Shown piece by piece: positions 16,419 through 35,106 of a stretch of DNA of 35,106 bases. The notes beneath the pieces are model-generated. The model had not been told where the DNA came from, searched no databases, and worked only from the letters and a program-made list of their open reading frames with translations. Origin of the DNA: Marinospirillum sp. (GTDB lineage Bacteria; Pseudomonadota; Gammaproteobacteria; Pseudomonadales; Halomonadaceae); NCBI GenBank assembly GCA_007116865.1, contig SKHR01000140.1, positions 1-35,106 of the forward strand, read 5' to 3'. Every line of letters starts with the position of its first letter. Positions within the stretch are counted from its first letter, which is position 1. The translations under genes were made by a program, and so were the position numbers.

Positions 16419-17612
16419 GTGGCTAAAGAAAAATTTGAACGTAGTAAACCCCACGTAAACGTTGGCACCATTGGTCACGTTGACCATGGTAAAACCACTC
16501 TGACTGCTGCTCTGACTCGCGTTTGTGCTGAGGTTTGGGGTGGTTCGGCCGTTGCTTTTGATGGTATCGATAACGCGCCTGAAGAAAAAGAGCGTGGTAT
16601 CACCATCGCAACTTCACACGTAGAGTATGAGTCTCCTACTCGTCACTACGCGCACGTCGACTGTCCTGGTCACGCTGACTATGTTAAAAACATGATCACT
16701 GGTGCGGCACAGATGGATGGCGCGATCCTGGTTTGTTCTGCAGCGGATGGCCCGATGCCCCAGACTCGTGAGCACATTCTGCTTTCACGTCAGGTTGGCG
16801 TACCTTACATCGTTGTGTTCATGAACAAAGCCGACATGGTTGACGATGAAGAGTTGTTGGAGCTGGTTGAGATGGAGATCCGTGATCTGCTGTCTACCTA
16901 TGAGTTCCCTGGCGACGACACCCCAATCATCATCGGTTCTGCGTTGATGGCTTTGGAAGGTAAAGACGACAATGAAATGGGTACCACCGCTGTTAAGAAG
17001 CTGGTTGAAGCCCTGGACAGCTACATTCCTGAGCCTGAGCGTGCGATTGACAAGCCTTTCCTCATGCCAATCGAGGACGTGTTCTCTATCTCTGGTCGCG
17101 GTACGGTTGTGACGGGTCGTGTAGAGCGCGGTATCGTCAAGGCCGGTGAAGAAATCGAGATTGTTGGTATTAAAGACACCACCAAAACCACCTGTACGGG
17201 TGTTGAAATGTTCCGTAAGCTGCTTGATGAAGGTCGTGCAGGTGAGAACATTGGTGCACTGCTGCGTGGCACCAAGCGTGATGACGTTGAGCGTGGTCAG
17301 GTACTGGCTAAGCCAGGTTCGATCACTCCTCACACTGTCTTTGAAGCAGAAGTTTACGTTCTGTCTAAAGACGAAGGTGGTCGTCACACGCCTTTCTTCA
17401 AGGGCTACCGTCCTCAGTTCTACTTCCGTACCACTGACGTGACCGGAAGCTGTGAGCTGCCAGAAGGCGTCGAGATGGTCATGCCTGGCGACAACGTCAA
17501 GCTGGTTGTGACTTTGATCGCGCCAATCGCGATGGAAGATGGTTTGCGTTTCGCGATTCGTGAAGGTGGTCGTACCGTTGGTGCTGGCGTTGTTGCCAAA
17601 GTCATCGAGTAA
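16419..17612 (+). CDS. tuf: Elongation factor Tu
   Basis: GTG start; [28 protein letters not shown]. Confidence 0.99.
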
Positions 17613-17633
17613 TTGATCCCTGAGCATTCGGTT

Positions 17634-17666
17634 AGAGGGCCTCTCGTTTGAGAGGCCCTCTTTCTT
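17634..17666 (+). terminator. Terminator after tuf
   Basis: 12-bp perfect stem AGAGGGCCTCTC-GTTT-GAGAGGCCCTCT followed by TTCTT. Confidence 0.8.
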
Positions 17667-17678
17667 GTAAATATTCGT

Positions 17679-17708
17679 TTGACAGGCGTTGTTTTGCAGC
17701 ACTATAAT
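17679..17708 (+). promoter_or_regulatory. S10 operon promoter
   Basis: TTGACA-18bp-TATAAT ending 62 bp before the rpsJ start. Confidence 0.8.
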
Positions 17709-17770
17709 GCTGCTCCTTTTTTGGTGCAGCCGTGGCTGCATCGTGTGTGTCCGTATCGGAGCATTGAATA

Positions 17771-18082
17771 ATGCAAGACCAAAAAATCCGTATTCGGCTG
17801 AAATCGTTTGATCATCGACTGATTGATCAGTCTGCGCTGGAGATTGTTGAGACAGCCAAGCGCACTGGTGCTCAGATCAAGGGTCCGATTCCTCTGCCGA
17901 CTCGTAAAGAAAAATTTACTGTGCTGATTTCTCCGCACGTAAATAAGGATGCTCGTGATCAGTACGAGATCCGCACTCATAAGCGAGTGCTGGATATCGT
18001 CGAGCCAACTGAAAAAACAGTTGATGCTCTGATGAAGCTCGAACTGGCTGCTGGTGTTGATGTGCAGATCAGCCTGGGTTGA
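17771..18082 (+). CDS. rpsJ: 30S ribosomal protein S10 (NusE)
   Basis: [37 protein letters not shown]. Confidence 0.99.
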
Positions 18083-18134
18083 TCTGTCGCTCGTAATGCG
18101 TGGTTCGCGTCGTGAGGCGCCATACAATTGAGAG

Positions 18135-18185
18135 AGTGGAATGCCCTGGAAAAGGCAGCCATAGCGGGTGATAGCCCCGTACACT
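18135..18185 (+). promoter_or_regulatory. Candidate cis-regulatory RNA mimicking 23S rRNA H18-H20 (L4/L24 site) upstream of rplC
   Basis: AGTGGAATGCCCTGGAAAAGGCAGCCATAGCGGGTGATAGCCCCGTACACT; stems AGTG/CACT, TGCC/GGCA, GGG/CCC; colinear with recalled 23S domain I sequence; ends 3 nt before the SD AGGAG. Confidence 0.7.
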
Positions 18186-18200
18186 GATAGGAGACATGAA

Positions 18201-18842
18201 ATGGCTCTTGGTTTGATCGGTAAGAAAAGCGGTATGACCCGCATTTTCACCGAAGACGGCGTTTCTATACCCGTCACCGTGATTGAAGTCACGCCAAATC
18301 GCGTTACCCAGTTGCGCACCCCTGAGGTCGATGGATACTCAGCTGTGCAGTTGACTGTGGGCGAGCGTAAGGCCAAGCATTTGACTAAGGCGCAAGCTGG
18401 TCACTTTGCTAAAGCCAAGGTTGAGGCGGGACGTACTCTACGTGAGTTTAGAGTTGATGCAGGTGTTGAATTGCCTGAAGTTGGCTCTGAGCTGAGCGTT
18501 CAGATTTTCGAAGCTGGTCAGTTGATTGATGTGACCGGCACCTCTAAAGGTAAGGGCTTTCAGGGCCCAGTCAAGCGCTGGAACTTCAGTACGCAAGACG
18601 CTACCCACGGCAACTCACTTTCCCACCGTGCACCGGGTTCGATTGGTCAAAACCAAACACCGGGTCGCGTTTTCAAGGGCAAGAAGATGGCTGGCCAAAT
18701 GGGTAATGAGCGTATGACCGTTCAGTCCCTGGAAATTGTGCGTGTTGATGCAGAGCGTCATTTGCTTCTGGTTAAAGGTGCCGTCCCCGGCGCAACCGGA
18801 AGTGATGTGATCGTGCGTCCCGCAGTCAAGGCTCGCAGCTAA
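18201..18842 (+). CDS. rplC: 50S ribosomal protein L3
   Basis: Start reassigned to ATG 18201 (SD AGGAG at 18189-18193); [25 protein letters not shown]. Confidence 0.98.
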
Positions 18843-18856
18843 GAGGAAAGCGATCT

Positions 18857-19462
18857 ATGAACCTGAATCTAGCCGGAGCACAGGGTACTGTTGAAGTATC
18901 TGATGCGACCTTTGGAAAAGAGTTTAACGAGTCACTTGTTCATCAGGTGGTCGTCGCTTACTTGGCGGGTGCTCGTCAAGGAACACGTGCGCAAAAGTCT
19001 CGTGCTGAAGTCAGTGGCGGTGGTAAGAAGCCTTGGCGTCAGAAGGGAACGGGTCGTGCGCGTTCTGGTACTGCGACCTCTCCAATCTGGCGTAAAGGTG
19101 GTGTCACCTTTGCTGCTAAGCCGCAAAACCACAGCCAGAAAGTGAACCGCAAAATGTATCGTGCAGCGATGCGCTCAATCCTCTCAGAACTGGCTCGCCA
19201 AGAGCGTCTGGTTGCTGTCGAGTCAATGAGTGTTGAGGCGCCGAAGACTCGTTTGTTGGTCAATAAGTTGGCGGAAATGCAGCTGGACAAGGTGTTGATT
19301 GTCACTGCTGAGATGGATGTCAATTTGTACTTGGCTGCCAGAAATCTACCGAATGTAGAAGTCATTGAGGCGCAGTCTGCTGATCCGGTCAGCCTGATTG
19401 CCTACGATAAAGTGCTGGTGACTGTGCCTGCGCTGCGTCAGTTCGAGGAGAGATTGGGATGA
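18857..19462 (+). CDS. rplD: 50S ribosomal protein L4
   Basis: [22 protein letters not shown]. Confidence 0.99.
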
Positions 19463-23260: not shown

Positions 23261-23578
23261 ATGCGTAAAATCAAACGTGACGATGAAGTTATCGTCATTG
23301 CAGGCAAAGACAAGGGTAAGCGTGGCACCGTCAAGCGTGTTCTAAAGGACGACCGTTTTGTGGTCTCCGGTGTGAACATGATCAAACGTCATACGCGCCC
23401 AAACCCCTATGCAAATCAGCCTGGCGGCATCATTGAGCGCGAAGCGCCCATTCATGCCTCCAACGTTGCCATCTTTAATAAAGAAACTGGCAAGGCTGAC
23501 AGAGTAGGTTTCAAGGTCCTGGAAGACGGTTCCAAGGTACGTATTTATAAGTCGACTCAAGCCGAGATCGACGCCTAA
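23261..23578 (+). CDS. rplX: 50S ribosomal protein L24
   Basis: KOW motif [24 protein letters not shown]. Confidence 0.99.
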
Positions 23579-34495: not shown

Positions 34496-35106
34496 ATGTC
34501 TCTGTCTGGATTGAATGCCCCTGAATTACGTGCTGTGACGGGTTTGGCGAGTCTTTATGGCTTGCGCATGCTGGGCCTGTTCATGGTGCTGCCGGTCTTG
34601 CCTTTGCTGGCCGCCGACCTGGATGGCGCGACCCCGGTTGCGCTGGGTCTGGTGATCGGGATCTATGGTCTGACCCAAGCCATCTTGCAGCTTCCCTTTG
34701 GCTGGTTATCGGATCGCGTTGGACGCAAGCCGCTGATTTTTATCGGGCTTGGGTTGTTTGCCCTGGGCAGTCTGGTGGCTGCGCTGGCGGATAGTCTGAC
34801 CGGGCTGGTGATCGGTCGTGCGCTGCAGGGCAGTGGTGCCATTGCCAGCGTGCTGATGGCGCTGCTGGCAGACTTGACCCGTGATGAGAAGCGTACCCAG
34901 GCCATGGCCAGTGTTGGTCTGAGCATCGGTCTGGCCTTTATTCTTGCCATGGCGTTGGGTCCCTGGCTGGCTGGTTGGCTGGGTTTGTCCGGTTTGTTCT
35001 GGCTGATTTTTTTGCTCACACTACTGGGAATGGGGGTGCTGTGGCGCTGGGTGCCCACCCCGACACGAGTACGCAGCCACCTGGATGCGGGTATTCAGCC
35101 TCAGGA
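34496..35106 (+). CDS. MFS transporter, YajR-like (partial, runs off window; not in ORF track)
   Basis: Hand translation MSLSGLNAPELRAVTGLASLYGLRMLGLFMVLPVL...GWLSDRVGRKP (MFS motif A); divergent from uvrA as in the common uvrA-MFS-ssb arrangement. Confidence 0.9.
   Translation, partial: MSLSGLNAPELRAVTGLASLYGLRMLGLFMVLPVLPLLAADLDGATPVALGLVIGIYGLTQAILQLPFGWLSDRVGRKPLIFIGLGLFALGSLVAALADSLTGLVIGRALQGSGAIASVLMALLADLTRDEKRTQAMASVGLSIGLAFILAMALGPWLAGWLGLSGLFWLIFLLTLLGMGVLWRWVPTPTRVRSHLDAGIQPQ

What the first reader, a model, noticed from the sequence alone, without database searches (positions are those of the whole stretch)
18135..18185. A 23S rRNA H18-H20 (L4/L24 site) mimic abutting the rplC ribosome-binding site: candidate internal autoregulatory operator
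Seen: the rpsJ-rplC spacer is 118 nt and contains AGTG-GAA-TGCC-CTGGAAAA-GGCA-GC-C-ATA-G-C-GGG-TGATA-GC-CCC-GTA-CACT, ending 3 nt before the SD AGGAG. Established, with sequences recalled rather than aligned: gammaproteobacterial 23S domain I at about nt 295-343 reads approximately GTGGAAGCGTCTGGAAAGGCGCGCGATACAGGGTGACAGCCCCGTACAC in E. coli and GCGGAACGCTCTGGAAAGTGCGGCCATAGTGGGTGATAGCCCCGTACGC in Pseudomonas. That fragment is the primary binding site of L4 and L24. The element is colinear with it and keeps the three-way junction stems with apparently compensatory changes. It also keeps the AUA triloop closed by a lone C-G pair, the UGAUA loop, and the two GC dinucleotides that form the rRNA pseudoknot. 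Inference: free L4 (rplD, the gene after rplC) and/or L24 bind here and block rplC initiation and coupled downstream translation. This would be a literal rRNA mimic, unlike the E. coli S10-leader attenuator. I do not know of a named RNA family for it, but could not verify novelty.
Basis: partly seen in the sequence, partly recalled or inferred. Interest (0 to 1): 0.9.

Follow-up and report, generated by a model that had tools for sequence, protein, structure and literature searches.

The report
23S rRNA junction copy before rplC
The gap between the genes for ribosomal proteins S10 and L3 holds a near-literal, structurally conserved copy of the 23S rRNA site where proteins L4 and L24 first bind; it is shared by most Pseudomonas-, Halomonas- and Marinobacter-like bacteria examined and likely lets spare L4 turn down translation of its own operon.

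Summary
Confirmed. Window 18136-18184 is colinear with E. coli 23S nt 295-343 (H18-H20) and matches Rfam's LSU model (E 1.6e-9 genome-wide). It is no assembly artefact: 10 of 10 same-genus relatives and 65 of 87 genomes drawn evenly from the order carry it directly before the rplC Shine-Dalgarno; 0 of 97 spacers from other Gammaproteobacteria do. In 56 distinct copies 99.5% of cells pair, 8 of 14 pairs covary, the pseudoknot included. The published L4 footprint (319-322) is kept; two L24-footprint bases that never vary in rRNA (G298, G338) drift, though the window keeps both. Carriers have short S10 leaders without the E. coli L4 hairpin; the sister clade lacking it has such a hairpin, and 21 of 301 class genomes have that hairpin right before rplC. 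This swap is one evolutionary event. Best reading (0.72): an internal L4-bound translational operator; binding and repression are untested. It has no Rfam family of its own and was not found in 10 literature searches (several key papers not held). This scan noted the same element twice before on other DNA.

The parts
17634..17661 (+). intrinsic-terminator-like hairpin after tuf
17679..17708 (+). sigma-70 consensus promoter (12/12) of the S10 operon; leader to rpsJ about 56 nt, no HD-like hairpin
17771..18082 (+). rpsJ (S10), upstream of the element
18107..18120 (+). GNRA-tetraloop hairpin upstream of the element, kept with varying stems in the genus and family; role unknown
18135..18185 (+). 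23S rRNA H18-H20 three-way-junction copy (18136-18184 = E. coli 23S nt 295-343)
18136..18141 (+). H18 5' strand (18136-18138, pairs with 18182-18184) and junction strand 298-300 (part of the published L24 footprint 298-301)
18142..18157 (+). H19 hairpin; all five pairs covary; arm 9-56 nt long in relatives
18158..18164 (+). pseudoknot 5' dinucleotide (317-318) and the C-AUA-G lone-pair triloop (319-323), holding the published L4 footprint 319-322
18166..18181 (+). H20 stem, loop with the pseudoknot 3' dinucleotide (18174-18175), and junction strand 338-340
18189..18193 (+). Shine-Dalgarno AGGAG of rplC, 4 nt after H18 closes
18201..18842 (+). rplC (L3), the gene predicted to be controlled directly
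18857..19462 (+). rplD (L4), the predicted repressor
23261..23578 (+). rplX (L24), possible co-ligand; rpsQ-rplN gap is only 40 nt with no consensus promoter, so probably on the same transcript

Best explanation
The element is a conserved mRNA copy of the 23S rRNA H18-H20 junction placed four bases before the rplC ribosome-binding site, and it likely works as an internal feedback operator: free L4 would bind the C-AUA-G triloop and pseudoknot as it does on rRNA, would lock the junction against the Shine-Dalgarno, and would lower initiation of rplC and of genes coupled behind it. Shown: sequence identity with the rRNA site, fixed position, a fold kept by compensatory changes, and retention of the L4 footprint. 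Inferred: that L4 is the ligand, that binding represses, that the block is steric (the Shine-Dalgarno is not paired by the element), and that the effect spreads downstream by translational coupling or polarity. rpsJ would lie outside this control.
For: Match to LSU rRNA, E 1.6e-9. This rRNA fragment is the primary site of uL4 and uL24 (PMC6426284, abstract, introduction and passages). Of 56 distinct rRNA-length copies 99.5% of cells pair, 8 of 14 pairs change on both sides (40 cells; shuffles 6.2; slid controls at most 12), the pseudoknot pair 317:334 being G-C 50, A-U 5, G-U 1. L4 footprint 319-322 (PMC2770661, Fig. 2D legend): C319 65/65, purine 320 65/65, U321 62/65, A322 65/65; L24 footprint: G298 10/65 and G338 52/65 against 27/27 each in rRNA. 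Distance from H18 to the start codon is narrow, mostly 13-16 nt, 16 in the window. Carriers have short S10 leaders (median 65 nt, 64 of 65 with a promoter call) and 1 of 65 has an HD-like hairpin, against 15 of 22 non-carriers. The E. coli HD hairpin, implicated in L4 binding (PMC3616713 section 14; sequence), sits directly before the rplC Shine-Dalgarno in 21 of 301 class genomes, reversed-pattern control 0, so this position is used by an L4-type RNA elsewhere. A 2024 review states that E. coli-like L4 control was not found for Pseudomonas (PMC10931766, passage).
Against: No binding or expression data. Nearest-neighbour folding does not favour the junction: -9.2 kcal/mol against -16.9 for an alternative, z -1.46; true rRNA segments behave alike, so the fold needs tertiary contacts or protein. 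The element does not pair with the Shine-Dalgarno. Carriers form essentially one clade and HD-leader genomes its sister, so the complementary distribution is one event, not many. The HD-like loop pattern was written after seeing the data; some of the 15 hits (L323, L328) look like chance. 7 of 22 non-carriers have neither element, and three such genomes lie inside the carrier clade. The parser demanded purines at 320 and 322, so part of that invariance is built in. In the window both footprints are intact and L24 is probably on the same transcript, so L24 is not excluded here.
Confidence: 0.72

Rival explanations
1. The operator senses L4 and L24 together, or L24 alone: the two bind the rRNA fragment cooperatively, and repression would need both to be in excess.
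For: About sixfold cooperative binding on the rRNA fragment (PMC6426284, passage). The window keeps G298, A299, A300, C337, G338 and both rRNA loops. rpsQ-rplN gaps are 12-130 nt in 41 of 41 carriers examined, mostly under 80, so S10 and spc genes probably share a transcript. A299 58/65, A300 64/65 and C337 65/65 are kept.
Against: G298 is U in 55 of 65 and G338 changes in 13 of 65; the H19 arm runs from 9 to 56 nt and G329 is kept in 23 of 65. Short rpsQ-rplN gaps occur equally in non-carriers. No L24 leader is listed among known r-leaders (PMC7247131 Table S1).
Confidence: 0.14
2. The RNA binds L4 but acts through mRNA fate rather than initiation: a processing or decay site, a pause or Rho-dependent termination trigger, or a positive element for rplC translation.
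For: The element does not sequester the Shine-Dalgarno. An upstream hairpin and an ACAAUU run recur in several families. E. coli L4 acts at transcription as well (PMC3616713).
Against: No terminator-like site follows the element in the window; the tight spacing to the start codon suits an initiation effect.
Confidence: 0.09
3. The element is a non-regulatory holding site that parks or chaperones newly made L4/L24 near their place of synthesis.
For: It copies a full early-assembly module rather than a minimal site.
Against: A holding site would not need a fixed spacing to the rplC start, nor would it be expected to alternate with the HD hairpin. No precedent known to me (recalled).
Confidence: 0.04
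4. It is an assembly chimera or a neutral remnant of an rRNA fragment.
For: The genome is a 77.5% complete assembly that lacks its own 23S.
Against: Same element at the same place in 10 of 10 same-genus relatives with rplC found, among them a single-contig genome, and across the order; compensatory changes; copies are no closer to their own genome's 23S than to others (38.0 against 37.9 of 49, 20 genomes).
Confidence: 0.01

Closest known systems
E. coli / enterobacterial L4-interacting S10 leader (hairpins HA-HG upstream of rpsJ; Fu et al. 2013, PMC3616713)
   Same: Same operon and same likely ligand (L4); binding to it is outcompeted by the 23S fragment that holds the L4 site (PMC10931766, passage).
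   Different: Different sequence and fold (hairpin series with terminator against a three-way junction with pseudoknot), different place (before rpsJ against before rplC), and it attenuates transcription; the window's S10 leader is about 56 nt with no HD hairpin.
E. coli S8 operator of the spc operon (internal site at rplE)
   Same: An rRNA-like operator inside an operon, at the initiation region of a later gene, acting by blocked initiation and coupling (PMC10931766, passage).
   Different: Binds S8 and resembles 16S helix 21; unrelated sequence.
23S rRNA domain I H18/H19/H20 junction (RF02541 positions 332-380; E. coli nt 295-343)
   Same: Colinear sequence, same helices, triloop and pseudoknot.
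   Different: A 49-nt stand-alone copy in mRNA; G298, G329, A311, G338 and the H19 arm length, fixed in 27 rRNA segments, vary in the copies.
L4-Archaeoglobi r-leader candidate (Eckert and Weinberg 2020, PMC7247131)
   Same: Predicted L4 leader upstream of rplC.
   Different: Archaeal, rated borderline, not marked as resembling the rRNA site in their Table 1; its alignment was not compared here.

Membership tests
E. coli-type L4 S10 leader | lies upstream of rpsJ | tested here: not met
   element is between rpsJ and rplC
E. coli-type L4 S10 leader | HD hairpin followed by terminator hairpin HE with U tract | tested here: not met
   no HD-like hairpin in the window's leader or spacer; no terminator after the element
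r-leaders that mimic rRNA (kind) | consistently upstream of r-protein genes | tested here: met
   65 of 87 order genomes, always before the rplC Shine-Dalgarno
r-leaders that mimic rRNA (kind) | secondary structure supported by covariation | tested here: met
   8 of 14 pairs change on both sides, 0 of 500 shuffles as high; R-scape not run, shuffles ignore relatedness
r-leaders that mimic rRNA (kind) | resembles the rRNA site of a protein encoded downstream in the operon | tested here: met
   23S nt 295-343; rplD is the next gene after rplC
r-leaders that mimic rRNA (kind) | binds the r-protein specifically | not testable with these tools
   needs binding assays
r-leaders that mimic rRNA (kind) | lowers downstream expression when the protein is in excess | not testable with these tools
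   needs reporter assays
23S rRNA gene or pseudogene fragment (RF02541) | reaches the gathering score or extends along the rRNA | tested here: not met
   36.1 bits against 50; match confined to model positions 331-383
any Rfam cis-regulatory leader family | match at gathering score | tested here: not met
   only four tRNAs in the window; only LSU and a weak suhB match at E up to 10 in 17600-18300

The most novel reading that the evidence does not exclude
A piece of the 23S rRNA gene itself was copied once into the S10 operon mRNA at the base of the main Pseudomonadales clade, displaced the older HD-hairpin L4 operator, and in lineages such as the window's, where both protein footprints are intact, works as a two-protein AND gate that reads free L4 and L24 cooperatively over one long S10-spc transcript.
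Probability: 0.25. Interest if true: 0.88.

Novelty: new variant of a known kind. Interest (0 to 1): 0.72.

Why it matters
How Pseudomonas and its relatives balance the eleven proteins of the S10 operon is open: a 2024 review records that E. coli-like L4 control was not found in Pseudomonas (PMC10931766). This element gives a precise, 49-base candidate with defined positions to mutate, in a large and well-studied group. It is also an unusually literal case of rRNA mimicry (a whole three-way junction with pseudoknot, colinear with the rRNA), a natural mutagenesis series of the L4/L24 assembly site freed from ribosome constraints, and, with the HD hairpin found before rplC in other Gammaproteobacteria, a view of one operator replacing another.

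Tried and rejected
Alignment to this genome's own 23S: not assembled. cmscan of 18 relative loci at E up to 0.5 returned nothing (the filters are stricter with more sequence, and the LSU family search did find the copies in 5 of 5 relatives). Single-sequence folding does not give the junction. RNA evidence: no RNA holder listed for a Pseudomonas locus, and three raw RNA runs laid 0 reads: no test either way. rpsQ-rplN gap as a discriminator for L24: short in carriers and non-carriers alike. Ongoing gene conversion from rRNA: not supported, own 38.0 against other 37.9 of 49. Internal promoter in the spacer: no consensus site in the window. Shine-Dalgarno pairing by the element: not seen; 6 of 64 start-codon distances there (0-1 nt) are miscalls of my picker and were disregarded. 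Two copies with other arm lengths (L023, L062) were dropped before alignment A2; two rows were re-anchored by hand. Literature: 10 searches found no description. Not held: Allen 1999, Stelzl 2000, 2001 and 2003, Zengel 2002, Meyer 2018. The supplement of PMC11109978, with 30 ribosomal-leader candidates, could not be read and may bear on novelty; supplements of PMC8632094, PMC5737381 and PMC6429828 were not opened.

Full report
Observation. Against E. coli 23S fetched here it is nt 295-343, 37/49 identical, and 42/49 and 43/49 identical to the 23S of two same-genus genomes. The genome's own 23S is not assembled. No Rfam leader family matches.

Not an artefact; distribution. Of 28 genomes with rplC found among the window's genome and 30 relatives, 26 carry the element at the same place, including 10 of 10 same-genus relatives. 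In an even draw from the order, 87 genomes had rplC; a covariance model built on 56 copies finds the element in 65, and nothing in the other 22. A pattern scan of GTDB stopped at 120 loci: 119 are rplC junctions with the element, one is chance; titles name Pseudomonas, Stutzerimonas, Halomonas, Marinobacter, Microbulbifer, Cellvibrionaceae, Halieaceae, Endozoicomonas and SAR86. Outside the order, 0 of 97 spacers match (the 97 best-scoring of 186 out-of-order class genomes with rplC), and 0 of 365 genomes of the phylum match the pattern, against 30 of 36 in the order (one further match there lies elsewhere in its genome). Copies in the window's family equal those of named Halomonas loci, so the window is probably from the Halomonadaceae (inference).

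Structure. On a gapless alignment of 56 distinct 51-nt copies, 99.5% of cells form standard pairs; 8 of 14 pairs change on both sides (40 cells; shuffles 6.2, none of 500 as high; slid controls at most 12). All five H19 pairs, two H18 pairs and the pseudoknot pair 317:334 (G-C 50, A-U 5, G-U 1) covary; H20 never varies and says nothing. The shuffles ignore relatedness and R-scape was not run. Against this, nearest-neighbour folding prefers another structure (-16.9 against -9.2 kcal/mol; z -1.46), as it does for true rRNA segments.

Which protein. The rRNA fragment is the primary site of uL24 and uL4, which bind it cooperatively (PMC6426284; abstract, first 10,000 characters and passages read). 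PMC2770661 (passages, Fig. 2D legend) gives the biochemical footprints: L4 at 319-322, L24 at 298-301 and 337-338. In the 65 copies C319 is 65/65, position 320 a purine 65/65, U321 62/65, A322 65/65 (purines at 320 and 322 were demanded by the parser). G298 is kept in 10/65 and G338 in 52/65, both 27/27 in 27 rRNA segments; A299 58/65, A300 64/65, C337 65/65; G329 23/65; the H19 arm is 9-56 nt. So the L4 face is held and the L24 face partly relaxed across the order, while the window keeps both. The rpsQ-rplN gap is 40 nt in the window with no consensus promoter and short in carriers and non-carriers alike, so L24 is probably on the same transcript and is not excluded.

Alternation with the known L4 element. 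The window has a 12/12 sigma-70 promoter and a leader of about 56 nt before rpsJ; E. coli's is 171 nt by the same scan and holds hairpin HD, whose loop is implicated in L4 binding (PMC3616713, section 14). Carriers have a median leader of 65 nt and 1 of 65 has an HD-like hairpin; 15 of 22 non-carriers have one (pattern written after seeing the data, two hits doubtful). In other Gammaproteobacteria the E. coli HD hairpin stands directly before the rplC Shine-Dalgarno in 21 of 301 genomes, control 0. A FastTree of ten concatenated r-proteins from 81 genomes (61 of the order, 20 others, chosen by me) puts 41 carriers in one supported clade with three genomes that have neither element, and the 12 HD-leader genomes in the sister clade. 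The alternation is therefore a single event and counts as consistency, not as a statistic. Copies are no closer to their own genome's 23S than to others (38.0 against 37.9 of 49; 20 genomes): no sign of ongoing conversion, and copying cannot be told from convergence.

Mechanism. H18 closes 16 nt before the AUG and 4 nt before the Shine-Dalgarno in the window, mostly 13-16 nt before the start in relatives. The element does not pair with the Shine-Dalgarno, so the likely block is steric: protein locks a marginal junction at the edge of the 30S landing site (that the 30S covers this distance is established knowledge, recalled). A weak hairpin over the Shine-Dalgarno and AUG is predicted in this genus. 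No terminator follows. Spread to rplD and beyond by coupling is inferred from the S8/spc precedent (PMC10931766, passages). Confidence 0.72 for L4-led translational repression; 0.14 for L4 with L24 or L24 alone; 0.09 for an effect on mRNA fate; 0.04 holding site; 0.01 artefact.

What is known. Table S1 of PMC7247131 (first 10,000 characters, passages, supplement 1 parts 2-3 and searches read) lists one bacterial L4 leader, the gammaproteobacterial E. coli type, and no L24 leader. PMC3616713 found only helix HG in Pseudomonadaceae; PMC10931766 says the E. coli-like control was not shown for Pseudomonas. Term searches in PMC2965389, PMC11109978, PMC8632094, PMC5737381, PMC6429828 and PMC8632103 (main texts, passages only) gave no mention. 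Ten library searches found no description; six primary or review papers were not held and one supplement with 30 leader candidates could not be read, so novelty is probable, not proven. This scan noted the same element in two other genomes (e1-9556674, e1-5125115); those notes agree and are not independent support.

Verdict. A real, clade-wide, structurally conserved copy of the 23S L4/L24 site at the rplC initiation region; a new variant of the rRNA-mimicking ribosomal-protein operator, not a member of the E. coli S10-leader family. Interest 0.72.

Noticed in passing
L164, L168, L174, L183, L185, L194, L195, L203, L227, L231, L234, L241, L245 and L469-L478 (rpsJ-rplC spacers outside the order): An E. 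coli HD-type hairpin (5-9 bp stem, 8-nt loop like the L4-binding loop of the S10 leader) sits directly before the rplC Shine-Dalgarno in 21 of 301 class genomes; in most of those inspected tuf or fusA abuts rpsJ with no leader. Likely a second, undescribed placement of the L4 operator.
   Followed up: partly
L257, L266, L283, L288, L293, L295, L301, L304, L309, L310, L313, L317, L324 (upstream of rpsJ): Order genomes without the mimic have long S10 leaders with an HD-like hairpin of a variant loop, in most followed by a terminator-like hairpin with U tract; they form the sister clade.
   Followed up: partly
window 18188-18210: A weak hairpin (-4.8 to -7.9 kcal/mol) pairing the Shine-Dalgarno and start codon with rplC codons 2-3 is predicted in 11 of 11 copies of this genus; it may add to the block.
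   Followed up: partly
window 18107-18129: A GNRA-loop hairpin followed by an ACAAUU run upstream of the element; the run recurs in spacers of several families. Role unknown.
   Followed up: no
L024 (G027) rpsJ-rplC spacer: A copy with about 32 extra bases in the H20 loop that keeps the core.
   Followed up: no
L051, L064, L083, L085, L118: SAR86-labelled records carry a minimal copy with an AU-rich or weak H18 and a 9-10 nt H19 arm.
   Followed up: no
L052, L116: Records titled Verrucomicrobiaceae and Pontibacter carry spacers that look like those of gammaproteobacterial loci; probably misbinned or mislabelled.
   Followed up: no
window 34663-35058 (-): A 131-aa ORF near the window end without NCBIfam (E 1e-10) or Pfam match; may not be a gene.
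   Followed up: partly
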